Source: Candidatus Poribacteria bacterium
Lineage (GTDB): Bacteria > Poribacteria > WGA-4E > PCPOR2b
NCBI GenBank assembly: GCA_965215015.1
Contig: OZ244042.1
Span: forward strand, 704,001 to 768,000
DNA: 64,000 bases
Reading direction: 5' to 3'
Below, in pieces: positions 25,384 through 31,475 of this stretch; the stretch's first letter is position 1, and every line of letters begins with the position of its first letter. The notes beneath the pieces are model-generated. The model did no database searches. It saw nothing but the letters and a program-made list of their open reading frames with translations, and had not been told where the DNA came from. The translations under genes and the position numbers were made by a program.

Positions 25384-26190
25384 ATGTCAGTCATGTCAAA
25401 TTACCTAGAACCGATACATCATACAGACTGGAAAAACAATAACTACCTAAGAATTTCCGGCTTCTTCTCGGATGAAGAGGTGACGGCATTGCAAGGGTGG
25501 GTCAACGACATTGAGCACTGGAAACCGACCCATGACAAGTGGCTGCACCATTTTGAAGCCACCCCAGACGGGACACGGCTTTCCCGATCGGAAAATTTCG
25601 TGTCGTACCACGCAGGTCTGAACAAGATTTTGACGGGCGGAAAGGTGCTGGAAGTTGTTTCGGAATTGATGGGCGAACCGGCAGTCCTCTACAAAGAGAA
25701 AATTAATTATAAATACCCCGGTGGTGGCGGCTACGCCGCACATCAGGACGCGCCTGCCTACGAGTTCGTTACATTCCATATTACCTGCTTAATTTCCGTC
25801 GACGCAGCGAGTCCGGAGAGCGGTTGTCTCTCTTTCTCGCCGGGGCAATACGAGAAAGGTTTCATTGCGCTTGATGAAAAGGGTTGTATTGCAGAGGAGG
25901 TCGCTTCGGAGATGGAATGGGTTGAGGTGCCAACGGAGCCGGGGGACATCCTGCTTTTCGGGTCTTATATCCCGCACAAAAGCGGAATAAACAGCTCCAA
26001 TCAGCCTCGACGCATCATTTATGTGACCTACAACGCCCTCTCCGAAGGCGATTGGCGTGAGCGGTACTATGAGGACAAACGACAGACCTTTTTGGAGTAT
26101 ACCAAAAATAGCTCAACACAAGCAAGTCAAATCAGTAAAATTGGACATTTTCAGGGAAGGACAGTGCTAAACCATGAACAATCGGATTGA
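25384..26190 (+). CDS. phnY: PhnY-like Fe(II)/2-oxoglutarate dioxygenase (PhyH family)
   Basis: KEKINYKYPGGGGYAAHQD (HxD), PHKSGIN..R; overlaps a phnZ-like gene. Confidence 0.75.
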   Translation: MSVMSNYLEPIHHTDWKNNNYLRISGFFSDEEVTALQGWVNDIEHWKPTHDKWLHHFEATPDGTRLSRSENFVSYHAGLNKILTGGKVLEVVSELMGEPAVLYKEKINYKYPGGGGYAAHQDAPAYEFVTFHITCLISVDAASPESGCLSFSPGQYEKGFIALDEKGCIAEEVASEMEWVEVPTEPGDILLFGSYIPHKSGINSSNQPRRIIYVTYNALSEGDWRERYYEDKRQTFLEYTKNSSTQASQISKIGHFQGRTVLNHEQSD

Positions 26191-26770
26191 CCAAACGCTC
26201 GCGGAACAGCTGACAGGCATAACAGTAGCGGAGAAGGTTACCACGCTATTTGATTATATGGAACGCAGGGGACAGTCGTTTTACGATGAATCGGTAACGC
26301 AATTGCAACATGCGTGTCAATGTGCGAACCAGGCACAGCTGCACGGCGGAAGCACAACGCAGATTGTGAGTGCCCTGCTACATGACATCGGGCACTTTCT
26401 GTTAGATGAACATAACGCCGAGAGCGACTTTTTGGAGGAAGATCAGAATCACGAGGAGGTCGGCGCAGATTATCTGGAGCCGTTTTTCCCGGAGGCGGTT
26501 ACAACCCCGATTCGATTGCATGTGCCAGCGAAACGGTATTTGTGTACAACCGACGCATCATACTACGATGGCTTATCCGAGGCGTCGAAAAGGAGTTTCC
26601 ACCTTCAGGGTGGGGGTATGTCGGCAGAGGAACGGGCAGCGTTTGAACGCATCCTATATTATCAGGACGCGCTCCAGCTGCGACGGTGGGATGATCTCGC
26701 CAAAGTGAAGGGGTTAGAGACACCTGCAATTGGTACTTACCGCGAGATTGTGCAGGCGTGCCTGAAATAG
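26174..26770 (+). CDS. phnZ: PhnZ-like HD-domain diiron oxygenase
   Basis: Y.E.VTQLQH, ALLHDIGH, HEEVGA, HVPAKRY, LQGG and RRWDDLAK motifs. Confidence 0.85.
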   Translation: MNNRIDQTLAEQLTGITVAEKVTTLFDYMERRGQSFYDESVTQLQHACQCANQAQLHGGSTTQIVSALLHDIGHFLLDEHNAESDFLEEDQNHEEVGADYLEPFFPEAVTTPIRLHVPAKRYLCTTDASYYDGLSEASKRSFHLQGGGMSAEERAAFERILYYQDALQLRRWDDLAKVKGLETPAIGTYREIVQACLK

Positions 26771-26841
26771 CAGACGTTGCCATTTAGTAGAAAACGTTGC
26801 GAACCGAGAAGATGGGAATCAAGCACCGCTTGCAGTAGATT

Positions 26842-29423
26842 GCGGAACATGTCTGAATCAGGATTTTCAGGATGGAAGGATAAACAGGATAGCAACGGCA
26901 GCATCAAAAATTCCTGGGAATCCTAGAATCAGGTGAATCGAGCTTCTGACAATTTATACGGTCTCCTCCCTGAAGAAATGGCGATTGTGGAGTGTGCGGA
27001 ACATGTCTGAATCAGGATTTTCAGGATGGAAGGATAAACAGGATAGCAAGGGCAGCATCAAAGATTCCTGGGAATCCTAGAATCAGGTGAATCGAGCTTC
27101 TGACAATTTATACGGTCTCCTCCCTGAAGAAATGGCGATTGTGGAGTGTGCGGAACATGTCTGAATCAGGATTTTCAGGATGGAAGGATAAACAGGATAG
27201 AAGGGGCAGCATCAAAAATTCCTGGGAATCATAGAATCTTGTGAATCGAGATTCTGAGAGTGGCGGAACATGTCTGAATCAGGATTTTCAGGTTGGAAGG
27301 ATAAACAGGATAGAAGGGGCAGCATCAAAATTTCTTGCGAATCCTAGAATCAGGTGAATCGAGATTCTGGCAGTTGCGGGAGATGCGTGAATGAGATAAT
27401 GAGATAAGGTGTCTATTTGAATCGGTGTGCTGAATCAGGGTTTCGAGGCTGGAAGGATAAACAGGATAGCAAGGGCAGCATCAAAGATTCCTGGGAATCC
27501 TAGAATCAGGTAAATCGAGCTTCTGACAATTTATACGGTCTCCTCCCTGAAGAAATGGCGATTGTGGAGTGTGCGGAACATGTCTGAATCAGGATTTTCA
27601 GGATGGAAGGATAAACAGGATGGCAACGGCAGCATCAAAAATTCCTGCGAATCCTAGAATCTGGTAAATCCGGATTCTGACAGTGTCGGGAGATGCGTGA
27701 ATGAGATAATGAGATAAGGTGTCTATTTGAATCGGTGTGCTGAATCAGGGTTTCGAGGCTGGCGGGATAAACAGGATAGGGCAGCATCAAAATTTCCTGC
27801 GAATCCTAGAATCAGGTGAATCCAGATTCTGACAATTTATACGGTCTCCTCCCTGAAGAAATGGCGATTGTGGAGTGTGCGGAACATGTCTGAATCAGGA
27901 TTTTCAGGATGGAAGGATAAACAGGATGGCAACGGCAGCATCAAAAATTCCTGGGAATCATAGAATCAGGTGAATCCAGATTCTGAGAGTGGGGGGAGAT
28001 GCGTGAATGAGATAAGGTGTCTATTTGAATCGGTGTGCTGAATCAGGGTTTTGAGGCTGGCGGGATAAACAGGATAGCAAGGGCAGCATCAAAGATTCCT
28101 GGGAATCATAGAATCTTGTGAATCGAGATTCTGACAGTGGCGGAACATGTCTGAATCAGGATTTTCAGGATGGAAGGATAAACAGGATAGCAACGGCAGC
28201 ATCAAAATTTCCTGGGAATCATAGAATCAGGTAAATCGAGATTCAGACAATTTATACGGTCTCCTCCCTGAAGAAATGGCGATTGTGGAGTGTGCGGAAC
28301 ATGTCTGAATCAGGATTTTCAGGATGGAAGGATAAACAGGATAGCAACGGCAGCATCAAAAATTTCTTGCGAATCCTAGAATCAGGTGAATCCAGATTCT
28401 GAGAGTGGGGGGAGATGCGTGAATGAGATAAGGTGTCTATTTGAATCGGTGTGCTGAATCAGGGTTTCGAGGCTGGAAGGATAAACAGGATAGCAAGGGC
28501 AGCATCAAAAATTTCTTGCGAATCCTAGAATCAGGTGAATCCAGATTCTGAGAGTGGGGGGAGATGCCTGAATGAGATAAGGTGTCTATTTGAATCGGTG
28601 TGCTGAATCAGGGTTTTGAGGCTGGCGGGATAAACAGGATAGGGCAGCATCAAAAATTCCTGGGAATCCTAGAATCTGGTAAATCCGGATTCTGACAGTT
28701 GCGGGAGATGCGTGAATGAGATAATGAGATAAGGTGTCTATGTGAATCGGTGTGCTGAATCAGGGTTTCGAGGCTGGCGGGATAAACAGGATAGAAGGGG
28801 CAGCATCAAAATTTCCTGGGAATCATAGAATCTTGTGAATCGAGATTCAGACAATTTATACGGTCTCCTCCCTGAAGAAATGGCGATTGTGGAGTGTGCG
28901 GAACATGTCTGAATCAGGATTTTCAGGATGGAAGGATAAACAGGATAGCAACGGCAGCATCAAAATTTCCTGGGAATCATAGAATCTTGTGAATCGAGAT
29001 TCTGACAGTGGCGGAACATGTCTGAATCAGGATTTTCAGGCTGGCGGGATAAACAGGATAGCAAGGGCAGCATCAAAAATTCCTGGGAATCCTAGAATCA
29101 GGTGAATCGAGATTCTGAGAGTGGGGGGAGATGCCTGAATGAGATAAGGTGTCTATTTGAATCGGTGTGCTGAATCAGGATTTTCAGGATGGAAGGATAA
29201 ACAGGATAGCAACGGCAGCATCAAAGATTCCTGGGAATCCTAGAATCAGGTGAATCGAGCTTCTGACAATTTATACGGTCTCCCCCCTGAAGAAATGGCG
29301 ATTGTGGAGTGTGCGGAACATGTCTGAATCAGGATTTTCAGGCTGGCGGGATAAACAGGATAGCAAGGGCAGCATCAAAGATTCCTGGGAATCGTAGAAT
29401 CTGGTAAATCCAGATTCTGACAA
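26842..29423. repeat. Tandem array of 18 ~100-bp imperfect palindromic units with three alternating linker types
   Basis: ctgaatcagg unit starts at 26853, 27007, 27161, 27274, 27430, 27584, 27740, 27890, 28038, 28151, 28305, 28454, 28603, 28755, 28909, 29022, 29170 and 29324. No ORF of 60 aa or more in the track. Confidence 0.97.
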
Positions 29424-29463
29424 TTGTATACTATTGATGCATCTGTAAGCCGATAGCCCTCGC

Positions 29464-29675
29464 TTAACTCATTTACCCCCATTTTTTTTGGTTATAGATT
29501 TGATTTATTTTTATGATTTAGGATAGTGAGAATACTTGTGATTAAGGGTGTTGGCATGTATCTCCCCTGCACATTGGCAGTGTGAACCATATCTGACAAC
29601 CCTTTCTCACATCTAGACCTCTCTAAAACAACCAACATGACACCTCTAAAAAAAATGGGGGTAAGTGAATGTTAA
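29464..29675. mobile_element. MITE-like element with ~27-bp terminal inverted repeats and TTAA ends
   Basis: Ends are ttaactcatttacccccattttttt and aaaaaaaatgggggtaagtgaatgttaa. Confidence 0.55.
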
Positions 29676-29683
29676 TTATCCTC

Positions 29684-29712
29684 TTGACAAACTGAGGATA
29701 ATCGTCTAAAAT
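29684..29712 (+). promoter_or_regulatory. Sigma70 promoter of the tRNA cluster
   Basis: TTGACA-N17-TAAAAT, ending 12 bp before tRNA-Asp. Confidence 0.85.
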
Positions 29713-29724
29713 ATAAGTCTTGTC

Positions 29725-29803
29725 GGACCCGTAGTGTAGCCTGGTTAAACACATCTGCCTGTCACGCAGAAGATCGCGGGTTCAAATCCCGTCGGGTCCG
29801 CCA
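29725..29803 (+). tRNA. tRNA-Asp(GTC)
   Basis: GGACCCG/CGGGTCC acceptor stem, anticodon arm tctgc-ctGTCac-gcaga, GGTTCAAATCC T-arm, encoded CCA. Confidence 0.97.
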
Positions 29804-29916
29804 GCTATTTATCTTTTCGTATTAATTTAATATCTTTGCGGAATGTGCGTAAAAAGAGGCTTATGCCGCAATGAAAAGCAACCAAGATTAACCCCTGCGA
29901 ATCAAGGTTGGATTTT

Positions 29917-29993
29917 GGGCGGGTAGCTCAGTTGGCTAGAGCGACGGCCTTACAAGCCGTAGGTCACAGGTTCAAGTCCTGTTCCGCCTACCA
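29917..29993 (+). tRNA. tRNA-Val(TAC)
   Basis: tagctcagttgg D-arm, anticodon arm acggc-ctTACaa-gccgt, GGTTCAAGTCC T-arm, CCA. Confidence 0.97.
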
Positions 29994-30014
29994 GAAATAA
30001 AAGCGACCCTTGTC

Positions 30015-30093
30015 GGACCCGTAGTGTAGCCTGGTTAAACACATCTGCCTGTCACGCAGAAGATCGCGGGTTCAAATCCCGTCGGGTCCGCCA
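30015..30093 (+). tRNA. tRNA-Asp(GTC), second identical copy
   Basis: Sequence identical to 29725..29803. Confidence 0.97.
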
Positions 30094-30176: not shown

Positions 30177-31475
30177 GTGTTAGATCTCAAATTCATCCGC
30201 CAAAACCCCGATGCGGTTCGAGCGATGCTAGCCGCTCGTCGGATGACAGCACCGTTGGAGGAACTTATTGAGGTAGACAGCAAATGGCGTGAATCATTGG
30301 GGGAGACAGAATCACTCAGAAGTCATCAGAACAGGGTCTCAAAAGAAATTGCACAACTCAAGAGAAACAAGCAGGATGCCTCCGAGCAGATTGCCAAGAT
30401 GAAAACGGTGTCTCAGAAGATTAAGACGTTGAACGATCAATCACAGTGTTATAAAAGTGAGGTCGATAAGATTTTAATGCTCATCCCAAACATGCCGGAT
30501 GCCAGCACACCGATTGGAAATAGCGAGGCAGATAATATCGAGATTAAGCACTGGGGAGAAATCCGAAACTTCGATTTTGAGCCGAAGCCGCACTGGGAAC
30601 TTGCGGAGGCGTTGGACATCGTTGATTTTCAGCGGGGAGCGAAGGTCGCCGGCAGCAACTTTGTGTTATACAAAGGGTTAGGGGCGAAATTGGAACGTGC
30701 GCTGATCAATTTTATGCTGGATTTGCATGTCTCTCAACACGGGTACACAGAGGTCTCCCCGCCTTTTGTCGCTAACCGTCTAACGATGACGGGCACAGGC
30801 CAGTTGCCCAAATTTGAGTCAGATATGTATCGGTGCGATCGTGACCGAGAGAATGAGGAGACGGATCTCTTTCTCATCCCAACCGCAGAGGTGCCGGTCA
30901 CTAATATTTTCGCTGGGGAGATTTTGAACGGCGAGGAGCTGCCGATCTACTATACCGCATACACTCCCTGTTTCCGACGAGAGGCGGGTTCTTACGGTCG
31001 GGAAACCCGCGGATTGCAACGTCTCCACCAGTTTGATAAGGTCGAAATGGTGAAATTAACCCTTCCGGAGACCTCTTACGACGAACACGAATCGTTGCTG
31101 CGTGATGCCGAGGAGGTTTTGCAAGCCTTCAAACTTCCCTACCGAGTCATTCAACATTGCACAGTTGATCTCTCATTCTCAGCAGCGAAGTGTTATGACA
31201 TCGAGCTTTGGGCACCAGTTGACGCAAAGTTTAACCTGGAAATTTCTTCGTGCAGTAATTTTGAGGATTTTCAGGCGCGTCGTGCGAATATCCGTTTCCG
31301 TCGTGAACCGGGCGCGAAACCTGAATTGGTGCATACCCTCAACGCCTCCGGGACAGCACTGCCACGATTGGTCATTGCAATCCTCGAAACGTATCAGCAG
31401 GAGGATGGGAGCATTCGGATTCCAGAGGCTCTCATACCTTACATGGGTGGGGTTGAGACGCTTGAATTGACGTGA
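30177..31475 (+). CDS. serS: Serine--tRNA ligase
   Basis: MLDLKFIR, GQLPKF, PTAEVP, FRREAG, HQFDKVE, EISSCSN and HTLNASG motifs. Confidence 0.98.

What the first reader, a model, noticed from the sequence alone, without database searches (positions are those of the whole stretch)
26842..29423. 2.6-kb array of 18 hairpin units joined by three re-used linkers in irregular order
Seen: each ~100-bp unit is an imperfect palindrome. The left arm is TGTCTGAAT plus four AGGAT-like boxes 8-9 nt apart. The right arm is four ATCCT-like boxes plus ATTC(T/A)GACA, which is complementary to the left end. The 17 junctions use only three linkers: A (tttatacggtc...gtgtgcggaaca, 7 times), B (...ggagatgcgtgaatgagataaggtgtctatttgaatcggtg, 7 times) and short C (gtggcggaaca, 3 times). 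Their order is A A C B A B A B C A B B B A C B A, with periods of 113-156 bp, and C recurs every sixth unit. The array has no long ORF and sits between phnZ and a tRNA cluster. It is not CRISPR (spacers recur, repeat too long) and not a simple satellite. Inference: a recombination-driven cassette array whose hairpins act as folded-ssDNA sites, a multimeric structured ncRNA, or a multivalent protein-binding platform. The cognate enzyme is not in this window. This is the best candidate here for an undescribed system.
Basis: partly seen in the sequence, partly recalled or inferred. Interest (0 to 1): 0.85.

Follow-up and report, generated by a model that had tools for sequence, protein, structure and literature searches.

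The report
Tandem foldback repeats carrying restriction-gene tails
This 2.6-kb stretch is non-coding repeat DNA: 18 copies of a small foldback element joined by leftovers of the end of a restriction-enzyme gene, and its 41-base core is shared by bacteria of several phyla although nobody knows what spreads it.

Summary
It is one of about 92 loci in a genome-wide repeat family (329 core copies).

Each unit starts with a sharply bounded 41-nt module (window 26850-26890): TGTCTGAATC plus four GGAT boxes spaced 9/8/9. A degenerate inverted copy follows.

Linker A is a fossil of the last 18 codons of a Type IIG restriction-modification gene. The stop codon lies inside the next module. B and C look like derivatives of A.

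At 8 of 11 sister loci the same unit abuts the stop codon of such genes, whose recognition domains are swapped between paralogs.

The window copy is an orphan. It is absent from 12 of 12 syntenic loci in congeners, and its end cap and flanking MITE match a sister locus almost exactly.

Variants are reshuffled across the whole unit (Rm at least 11). This fits homologous unequal exchange, not one site-specific crossover.

There is no support for an RNA, promoters, terminators or covariation.

The module also occurs in seven phyla by my assignment, often as foldbacks or tandem arrays. No partner protein was found.

The scan earlier noted GGAT-core repeats on other DNA.

The parts
25384..26190 (+). 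PhyH-family dioxygenase gene (PhnY-like by inference)
   Evidence: Pfam PF05721, E 1.8e-25.
26174..26770 (+).
   Evidence: Pfam PF01966, E 8.9e-5. Orthologs at 82-89% identity lie in 12 of 12 syntenic loci.
26771..26849 (+). Leader of the inserted block. It is unique in the genome, and its last ~20 nt resemble the tail of linker A.
   Evidence: BLAST of 26771-26849 finds only itself plus two weak matches.
26850..26890 (+). First copy of the 41-nt GGAT-box module (left arm): TGTCTGAATC plus four GGAT boxes spaced 9/8/9
   Evidence: Loose ends of contigs in four runs cluster at 26850 and at 26890/26891, and depth is about 100 times the flank. nhmmer finds 329 copies in the genome.
26850..29423 (+). 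Array of 18 head-to-tail units (module + centre + degenerate inverted module + linker A, B or C)
26912..26951 (+). Right arm of unit 1: a degenerate inverted copy of the module
   Evidence: Weak opposite-strand nhmmer hits to right arms in the array (13-20 bits).
26954..27010 (+). Linker A read as a fossil gene tail, LYGLLPEEMAIVECAEHV-stop. The stop TGA (27008-27010) lies inside the next module.
   Evidence: Translation. 49 of 57 nt are identical to the 3' end of the Type IIG gene at C1:3497058-3500684, and all 7 A linkers keep the frame.
29424..29470 (+). Terminal cap shared by the distal ends of sister arrays
   Evidence: 41-47 nt at 93-100% identity at six other array ends.
29467..29670 (+). 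About 205-nt MITE made of the two ends of an 8-copy DDE_Tnp_1 insertion sequence
   Evidence: The two halves match both flanks of the 8 IS copies at 87-94% identity. The whole MITE is 98% identical to C1:5660004-5659794, next to a sister array.
29684..29712 (+). Sigma-70-type promoter of the tRNA cluster (TTGACA, 17 nt, TAAAAT); conserved in relatives
   Evidence: alignment of the spacers.
29725..30093 (+). tRNA-Asp, tRNA-Val, tRNA-Asp
   Evidence: ARAGORN; Rfam RF00005.
30177..31475 (+). Seryl-tRNA synthetase gene, used as the synteny anchor
   Evidence: Pfam; orthologs at about 90% identity in 16 of 19 congeners.

Best explanation
The array is non-coding repeat DNA of the REPIN/BIME/MITE kind. 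It is not a gene and not a dedicated recombination system.

Shown:
- Each unit is a foldback. It consists of a 41-nt GGAT-box module and a decayed inverted copy, followed by a linker.
- Linker A is the fossil last 18 codons of a Type IIG restriction-modification gene. The stop codon sits in the first bases of the next module.
- In its home setting this unit lies at the 3' end of Type IIG and DUF1156-type genes.
- The Type IIG paralogs share the enzyme body and the C-terminal helix but carry unrelated recognition domains.
- The window block is absent in congeners.

Inferred:
- The window block (array, 45-nt cap, IS-derived MITE) was copied from such a locus into an insertion hotspot between the HD gene and the tRNA promoter.
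- RecA-type unequal crossing-over and gene conversion between units then expanded it and shuffled variants A, B and C into an irregular order.
- At restriction-modification loci the repeats may serve as the 3' homology for swapping recognition domains.
- In the window the array probably has no product and no function.
For: - Family size: nhmmer finds 329 module copies in 92 clusters, nearly all outside ORFs. 235 of 329 lie in same-strand runs of three or more.
- Other arrays: the module heads arrays with periods of 100, 103, 112, 128, 144, 181, 228 and 365 nt. Their units include whatever sequence lies next to the module, even gene 5' pieces.
- Linker A: translates to LYGLLPEEMAIVECAEHV-stop and is 49 of 57 nt identical to the end of the gene at C1:3497058-3500684.
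- Home setting: 7 restriction-modification-type ORFs end with their stop inside the module. 8 of 11 loci of this unit type lie 0-37 nt from such a stop. 16 of 26 large restriction-modification-type genes have a module cluster within 500 nt of their 3' end, against 84 of 4407 for all ORFs.
- Relatives: in 16 of 28 loci of this gene family the stop is inside the module, and in 2 more the module starts 2-3 nt after the stop.
- Paralog identity profile: 85-96% over the body, 17-30% over the recognition domain, 73% at the tail.
- Orphan status: 12 of 12 syntenic loci in congeners have a 76-407 nt spacer and no module, against 2954 nt here.
- Segmental copy: the cap and MITE are 98-100% identical to C1:5660040-5659794.
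- Mosaicism: 31 informative sites, 347 of 561 pairs fail the four-gamete test, and the minimum of 11 exchange intervals is spread along the 104-nt core.
- Precedent: tandem clusters of REPINs that include flanking sequence are described in Pseudomonas fluorescens (PMC3116915, passages read).
Against: - The module is nearly identical in seven phyla by my assignment and has sharp ends. That points to a specific trans-acting factor, which neutral satellite dynamics do not explain.
- Tandem runs headed by the module recur in 10 of 80 foreign loci. Array formation may therefore be intrinsic to the element rather than accidental.
- Recurrent mutation could inflate the four-gamete count.
- How the block reached this locus is not shown, and no target-site duplication was seen.
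- Copy-number variation between strains, which this model predicts, could not be measured.
- RNA contigs of one metatranscriptome contain the module, so transcription is not excluded.
Confidence: 0.6

Rival explanations
1. The module is the site of an unknown site-specific or replicative mobilisation system (cassette-like or rolling-circle-like). Units of 'module plus neighbouring DNA' are excised and re-inserted at other modules. This builds arrays and moves genes such as restriction-modification genes between modules.
For: - Sharp module ends in four runs.
- Near-identical module in seven phyla by my assignment.
- Arrays of 'module + local sequence' at many loci here and in 10 of 80 foreign loci.
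- 15 of 21 neighbouring cluster pairs are direct repeats. In 11 of those 15, all enclosed genes are co-oriented with the modules.
- In 7 congeners a module sits 3-14 nt after the stop of the same conserved gene, and the DNA beyond it differs between species.
Against: - Exchange points in the window array are spread over the whole unit.
- No target-site duplication or common core was evident by eye in the foldback copies.
- No recurrent neighbouring protein appears in 80 foreign loci.
- No element with inverted modules around a transposase was found.
- Candidate proteins do not track the module across 41 genomes. The multi-copy tyrosine recombinase is present in genus g10 4 of 4 where the module is all but absent (only a weak match in 1 of 4 genomes, E 2.4e-4), and it was not found in five carriers. 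XisH is present in 7 of 19 congeners.
- The Y1 transposase genes are not flanked by the module.
Confidence: 0.15
2. The module is a docking platform for a DNA-binding protein that reads four to five direct GGAT boxes at a 9-bp pitch (RHH-type or nucleoid-associated). The array is a multivalent binding site.
For: - What is conserved across phyla is the set of boxes and their 9/8/9 spacing. The spacers and the pairing between arms are not conserved.
- There is no covariation for a stem.
- The boxes recur in a CGGAT/CAGAT variant at the same gene ends in relatives.
Against: - The array is absent at this locus in 12 of 12 congeners.
- Orientation relative to genes is close to random (downstream gene co-oriented in 59 of 92 clusters).
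- Neighbours are ordinary genes here and in other phyla.
- No candidate protein was identified.
- CsrA, whose RNA sites resemble the boxes (a recalled resemblance), is not found in this closed genome.
Confidence: 0.15
3. The array encodes a multimeric structured RNA or a battery of small RNA genes, as in tandem sRNA arrays of cyanobacteria.
For: - The + strand folds better than the - strand (-32.1 against -22.3 kcal/mol).
- The array is co-oriented with the genes on both sides.
- RNA contigs of one metatranscriptome hold the module.
Against: - No Rfam match at gathering score, and only chance hits at E about 1.
- No promoter-like or terminator-like site inside the array (1 site found, at the tRNA promoter; shuffles give a mean of 5.2).
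- Fold z-scores of -1.7 and -1.35.
- The consensus fold is -7.2 kcal/mol, with 0 of 13 pairs compensatory.
- The RNA contigs match only the 41-nt module of a relative, not the rest of the unit.
Confidence: 0.04
4. Assembly artefact: the true locus holds only one to three units.
For: Short-read contigs of runs X1 and X5 stop inside the first module, so short reads cannot span the array.
Against: - The genome is one 5.94-Mb contig without N.
- Units differ at 31 informative sites in a non-periodic order.
- Ten sister loci have the same architecture.
- Word depth over the unit centre is about 30 times the flank in run X1, which is a rough measure.
Confidence: 0.03

Closest known systems
REP / REPIN elements and their tandem clusters (Pseudomonas fluorescens SBW25; Bertels and Rainey 2011, PMC3116915, passages read)
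   Same: - A short repeat occurs as singlets, as inverted doublets forming a hairpin, and as ordered tandem clusters that include flanking sequence.
- The copies are extragenic, and there are hundreds per genome.
   Different: - The 41-nt module is not itself a palindrome and lacks the GTAG head (a recalled feature).
- No RAYT is linked to it. The two Y1_Tnp hits are partial and not flanked by it.
- The array has 18 units, against a largest cluster of four REPINs in that paper.
- The module is shared across phyla, whereas REPs are lineage-specific (recalled).
- A separate GTAG-headed REP-like family exists in this genome.
BIMEs of enterobacteria and BOX elements of pneumococci (recalled, not read here)
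   Same: Mosaic elements built from a few re-used modules and linkers in variable numbers and orders.
   Different: - BIME units alternate in orientation, whereas these units are head to tail.
- BOX has the A-Bn-C order.
- Neither carries a fossil gene tail.
MITEs (the window itself holds a classical one at 29467-29670)
   Same: Small, non-coding, inverted arms of about 40 nt, many dispersed copies, and presence/absence between congeners.
   Different: - No target-site duplication was seen (by eye).
- No autonomous partner with the same ends was found.
- Solo arms and tandem runs dominate (235 of 329 copies in runs).
Movement of target recognition domains by recombination at flanking repeats (DOMO; Furuta et al. 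2011, PMC3077401, passages read)
   Same: The adjacent Type IIG family has a conserved body and tail around unrelated recognition domains. This is the pattern expected from exchange at flanking repeats.
   Different: - In that paper the repeats lie inside the specificity genes. Here the 3' repeat extends beyond the stop codon into a non-coding foldback array.
- The window array has no such gene next to it.
Integron cassette arrays (attC)
   Same: Imperfect palindromes of about 100 nt directly after ORFs, with the stop codon overlapping the site, and arrays of sites.
   Different: - No conserved core pair sits at the unit ends.
- Exchange points are dispersed.
- Units within an array are near-identical rather than distinct cassettes.
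- No integron integrase is linked. The multi-copy tyrosine recombinase scores far below the NCBIfam cut-offs and does not track the module.

Membership tests
CRISPR array | Short direct repeats (about 23-55 nt) separated by unique spacers of similar length | tested here: not met
   The conserved part is about 100 nt. The 'spacers' are only three recurring sequences, used 7, 7 and 3 times.
MITE | Terminal inverted repeats | tested here: met
   The unit starts TGTCTGAATC and ends GATTCTGACA or GATTCAGACA. Some foreign copies have near-perfect arms of about 42 nt, for example L070. 25 of 80 foreign loci hold such pairs.
MITE | Target-site duplication | tested here: inconclusive
   None was evident by eye at the foldback copies printed. 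No formal test was run, and no empty-site pairs were found for single insertions.
MITE | Autonomous element with the same ends | tested here: not met
   In the own genome no inverted module pair encloses a single transposase gene. No recurrent neighbouring protein was found in 80 foreign loci.
REP/REPIN | Associated RAYT (Y1 transposase) flanked by the repeats | tested here: not met
   There are two partial PF01797 hits. Neither has the module or the REP-like element within 1.5 kb.
REP/REPIN | Singlets, hairpin doublets and ordered tandem clusters that include flanks | tested here: met
   compared with the passages of PMC3116915 read.
BIME | Palindromic units in alternating orientation joined by a small set of linkers | tested here: not met
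   A small linker set is present, but all 18 units have the same orientation. The BIME definition is recalled.
Integron cassette array | One fixed crossover point in each site | tested here: not met
   The minimum of 11 exchange intervals is spread over the 104-nt core.
Integron cassette array | Integron integrase next to or tracking the array | tested here: not met
   There are 11 PF00589 hits in the genome and none near the window array. The multi-copy family scores 63 bits against cut-offs of 220-330, and its distribution does not follow the module.
Tandem sRNA gene array | A promoter and a terminator in every unit | tested here: not met
   No promoter-like or terminator-like site lies inside 26850-29423. 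The scan covers the sigma-70 consensus only.
CsrB/RsmZ-type protein-sponge RNA | CsrA encoded in the genome | tested here: not met
   PF02599 and PF02623 were not found in the closed genome (98% complete). Controls were positive.
Minisatellite evolving by unequal homologous exchange | Head-to-tail units with variants in mosaic combinations | tested here: met
   347 of 561 site pairs show all four combinations.
Minisatellite evolving by unequal homologous exchange | Copy number varies between strains | not testable with these tools
   Only short-read contigs were available, and they break in the first module.

The most novel reading that the evidence does not exclude
The 41-nt GGAT-box module is the cis site of an undescribed, cross-phylum mobilisation or amplification system whose protein is still unknown. 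The system copies 'module plus adjacent DNA' into tandem arrays. In Poribacteria it has become the 3' boundary of exchangeable recognition-domain cassettes of Type IIG restriction enzymes.
Probability: 0.2. Interest if true: 0.8.

Novelty: new variant of a known kind. Interest (0 to 1): 0.5.

Why it matters
As a single locus it is ordinary selfish or neutral repeat DNA, and it should not be annotated as a gene, a CRISPR array or an RNA. Three side results could matter.

1. A 41-nt module with fixed GGAT-box spacing is nearly identical in seven phyla by my assignment: Poribacteria, Latescibacterota, Bacteroidota, Chloroflexota, Desulfobacterota, Cyanobacteria and large sulfur bacteria. It repeatedly seeds foldbacks and tandem arrays. 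No transposase, recombinase or RNA family explains it. Some carriers are cultured isolates by their record titles (Pontibacter, Dolichospermum strains), so the question is experimentally testable.

2. In this genus the module is welded to the stop codon of a multi-copy Type IIG family whose recognition domains are swapped. This is a concrete case of non-coding repeats serving as the outer homology for diversifying defence specificity.

3. Arrays that contain fossil gene tails show how such repeats are born and moved.

Tried and rejected
- CsrA-sponge idea. The boxes read CAGGAU and resemble CsrB repeats (a recalled resemblance). CsrA and FliW were not found in the closed genome, so the idea was dropped.
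- Promoter-type element. Module orientation relative to flanking genes is close to the random expectation.
- Full-length transposon bounded by inverted modules. None was found.
- Multi-copy tyrosine recombinase with a module about 170 nt upstream. Its distribution over 41 genomes does not follow the module.
- XisH, a guess from the recalled phyletic pattern. It is present, but in only 7 of 19 congeners, and also in two genomes without the module.
- PDDEXK_2. Only sub-threshold hits.
- IS1595 transposase between modules. A single copy, not pursued.
- General link to restriction-modification genes outside Poribacteria. One cyanobacterial locus (L113) has an MmeI-type gene followed by a 6 x 83-nt module array. 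No other foreign locus showed such a gene with my queries. The ten proteins beside foreign module clusters that I scanned were ordinary proteins (six had a Pfam match) or had no Pfam match (four).
- Viral carriage. Only 2 matches in the viral collection.
- Literature. Four sequence words of the module matched 35 papers. The 20 listed were about unrelated subjects, and the other 15 were not seen. 'Poribacteria' with repeat terms gave nothing on this. The Elhai 2008 paper on small dispersed repeats is not held, so I could not check whether it shows this module. Supplements were closed.
- Read laying. Contigs cover the left junction in runs of three DNA studies. Parts without RNA cover are not evidence of silence.
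Full report
**Observation**

The region 26842-29423 is a head-to-tail array. Tandem Repeats Finder reports overlapping rows with periods 113, 148-154 and 306. Anchoring on CTGAATCAGG gives 18 units with periods of 113-156 nt.

No + strand ORF of 50 aa or more lies inside. Rfam finds only the three tRNAs in the whole window. The array lies between an HD-domain gene that follows a PhyH-family gene and tRNA-Asp/Val/Asp and serS.

**The unit is not a strong hairpin**

- One unit folds at -32.1 kcal/mol (z = -1.72; 13 of 200 shuffles fold as well) on the + strand, and at -22.3 kcal/mol (z = -1.35) on the - strand.
- RNAalifold on 28 units (18 from the window, 10 from sister arrays) keeps only 13 pairs. 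These are three short box-to-box helices at -7.2 kcal/mol, with 0 compensatory changes. The copies are too alike for this to be a strong test.
- An E-value Rfam search of 26800-27600 gives only chance snoRNA hits at E about 1.
- The promoter/terminator scan finds nothing inside the array. It finds only the tRNA promoter at 29684-29712.

**A genome-wide family**

The window lies in a single 5.94-Mb contig. Earlier notes of this scan call the organism a Poribacteria bacterium.

- A 117-nt unit finds 152 matches in this genome.
- Most matches cover only the first ~42 nt. A profile of that left arm finds 329 copies in 92 clusters, almost all outside ORFs.
- 235 of the 329 copies lie in same-strand runs of three or more.
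- The module heads many other tandem arrays, with periods of 100, 103, 112, 128, 144, 181, 228 and 365 nt. The rest of each unit is unrelated local sequence, including duplicated 5' pieces of genes.
- Of 92 intergenic tandem arrays with a period of 60 nt or more, 39 contain the module. The others carry different small modules or look like CRISPR arrays.
- Orientation relative to neighbouring genes is close to the random expectation (downstream gene co-oriented in 59 of 92 clusters).

Contigs of four public runs were laid on the left junction. They place loose ends at 26850 and at 26890/26891, and they show about 100 times the flank depth over that interval. The module is therefore a discrete 41-nt unit, TGTCTGAATCAGGATTTTCAGGATGGAAGGATAAACAGGAT.

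**What the linkers are**

ORFs that occur in several copies include four families of large single-chain restriction-modification or methyltransferase proteins:
- Eco57I + N6_Mtase + TaqI_C;
- Type ISP;
- Eco57I/MmeI_Mtase;
- DUF1156.

Of 26 such genes, 16 have a module cluster within 500 nt of their 3' end, against 84 of 4407 for all ORFs.

For the unit type seen in the window there are 11 loci. Eight lie 0-37 nt from the stop of such a gene, in the same orientation.

The gene ends read, for example, LENEIDQIVYLLYGLTPEEIGIVDCAEHV-stop, with the TGA inside the TGTCTGAATC of the module. Linker A of the window translates to LYGLLPEEMAIVECAEHV-stop. It is 49 of 57 nt identical to the end of the gene at C1:3497058-3500684. 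All seven A linkers keep this frame.

Comparing the unit sequences, C looks like a shortened A tail. B looks like that tail followed by a stuttered start of the module. This is my reading of the alignments, not a formal test.

One DUF1156-type gene has its own C-terminus replaced by the tail IVEGAENV-stop of the unit.

**The gene family next to the sister arrays**

- Eight Type IIG paralogs are 85-96% identical (the six that carry the unit) over the first ~800 alignment columns. Identity falls to 17-30% over the next ~450 columns (the recognition domain) and rises to 73% in the last 50.
- In 40 related genomes the family has several paralogs per genome. Matches mostly stop at residue ~776-849 of the query.
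- In 28 fetched loci, 16 ORFs end with the stop inside the module, and 2 more have the module 2-3 nt after the stop. Six complete ORFs lack it and four run off the locus. In most of these the boxes are a CGGAT/CAGAT variant.

This is the pattern described for movement of recognition domains by recombination at flanking repeats (PMC3077401, passages read). Here the 3' repeat runs on into the foldback array.

**The window copy is an orphan**

Twelve closed or near-closed congeners keep the gene order YdjM, metallophosphoesterase, PhyH, HD, tRNA-Asp, tRNA-Val, tRNA-Asp, serS. Their HD-to-tRNA spacers are 76-407 nt with no module hit, against 2954 nt here. About half have only a minimal spacer with the conserved tRNA promoter. 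Most of the others carry larger, unrelated inserts at the same spot, so this is an insertion hotspot.

On the right of the array:
- A 45-nt cap (29424-29470) recurs at six other array ends.
- 29467-29670 is a MITE made of the two ends of an 8-copy DDE_Tnp_1 insertion sequence.
- Cap plus MITE are 98-100% identical to C1:5660040-5659794, beside the array at a DUF1156-type gene.

The block is therefore a segmental copy of a restriction-gene-associated array. How it moved is not shown.

**How the irregular order arose**

Among the 18 cores there are 31 informative sites. 347 of 561 site pairs (including the flanking linker types) show all four combinations. The minimum number of exchange intervals is 11, spread from the first to the last column.

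This is what repeated unequal crossing-over and gene conversion between units produce. It is not what a recombinase with one crossover point produces. C at every sixth unit is not part of a higher-order repeat, because the linkers between the C units differ.

**The module beyond this genome**

- It is found in 19 of 19 congeners, in 3 of 5 other genera of the family, and in 4 of 6 genomes of a second family.
By record titles these are Poribacteria, Latescibacterota, Bacteroidota, Desulfobacterales, heterocystous cyanobacteria, Thiomargarita/Thioploca, Dehalococcoidia and Caldilineaceae. The phylum assignment is mine.
- In the 80 loci held, 25 contain foldback pairs and 10 contain same-strand runs of three or more.
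- The arms share the boxes and their spacing but not the spacers (L110; window units).
- No protein family recurs next to the module. The ten proteins I scanned beside foreign module clusters were ordinary ones, for example phosphoribulokinase and SAM synthetase, or had no Pfam match.
- One Dolichospermum locus has an MmeI-type gene followed by six 83-nt module units. That is a single case among the non-Poribacteria loci.
- Only two matches occur in the viral collection.

**Search for a partner**

- No transposon bounded by inverted modules was found.
- The two Y1 transposase hits are partial and are not flanked by the module.
- A multi-copy tyrosine recombinase has a module upstream but does not track it over 41 genomes.
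- XisH does not track it either.
- CsrA is not found.

In seven congeners a module sits 3-14 nt after the stop of the same conserved gene, and the DNA beyond it differs between species. In this genome a Type IIG gene plus foldback lies there. This keeps a boundary or recombination role possible.

**Comparison with known elements**

Tandem clusters of REPINs that include flanking sequence are described in P. fluorescens, with up to four REPINs per cluster (PMC3116915). BIME and BOX mosaics are similar in spirit (recalled).

The present family differs in four ways:
- a non-palindromic 41-nt module with phased GGAT boxes;
- the lack of a RAYT or any identified partner;
- its spread across phyla;
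- fossil gene tails inside the units.

Searches with words of the sequence and with Poribacteria repeat terms found nothing on it. The Elhai 2008 paper was not available, and supplements were closed. I did not test that link.

**Verdict**

The array is best read as an orphan, amplified copy of a foldback repeat with restriction-gene tails, shaped by homologous exchange and probably without a product (confidence 0.6). The open and more interesting question is what recognises the cross-phylum 41-nt module.

Noticed in passing
G000 C1:377639-381040, 3333297-3336842, 3497058-3500684, 3797369-3800935, 3804632-3808249, 5414668-5418174, 3373953-3377579, 3377839-3381318: Eight paralogous Type IIG restriction-modification genes. 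They share a near-identical body and C-terminal helix but carry unrelated recognition domains.
   Followed up: partly
window 29467-29670: A MITE of about 205 nt built from both ends of an 8-copy DDE_Tnp_1 insertion sequence (for example C1:2232699-2233829). It may be the MITE family noted earlier in this genome.
   Followed up: partly
L041, L042, L047, L049, L052 (syntenic loci of congeners), just after the HD gene stop: Other inserts of about 250-330 nt, unrelated to the array, at the same spot. By eye they have inverted ends starting CCTAAGTTG... This makes the spacer an insertion hotspot.
   Followed up: no
G000, e.g. C1:5334832-5335526, 3780946-3781877, 170771-171516: A second dispersed family: a GTAG-headed palindromic REP-like element of about 28 nt. 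A loose pattern finds 150 matches. It also heads tandem arrays.
   Followed up: partly
G000 C1:180360-180600 and 1617426-1617700: Runs of a G/C-rich hairpin module directly after the stop of DUF1156-type genes.
   Followed up: no
G000 C1:7730-7950: Upstream of a tyrosine recombinase gene, a copy of the 41-nt module is interrupted by a tiny hairpin insert of about 29 nt. This suggests very small mobile elements nested in repeats.
   Followed up: no
G000 C1:5162340-5163774 and 4392745-4393596: Tandem arrays (365 and 228 nt) whose units contain the module plus the duplicated 5' part of the neighbouring gene.
   Followed up: partly
G000 C1:1173188-1186869, 1347739-1351040, 3453511-3455158, 4938426-4956640: Arrays with periods of 65-74 nt that look like CRISPR arrays. 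They were not examined further.
   Followed up: no
L113:223-2829 (Dolichospermum record): An MmeI-type Type IIG gene ends 13 nt before a tandem array of at least six 83-nt units. Each unit is headed by the same 41-nt module.
   Followed up: partly
L013-L019 (seven congeners) and G000 C1:3495659-3503239: A module sits 3-14 nt after the stop of a conserved 388-aa gene, and the DNA beyond it differs between species. By eye that DNA includes TIR-like, ATPase-like and TPR genes. This looks like a variable island bounded by the module.
   Followed up: partly
G000 C1:111579-111974: A XisH homolog (152 bits). The family rings in none of the 14 control genomes and in 13 of the 41 genomes searched, this genome included.
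   Followed up: partly
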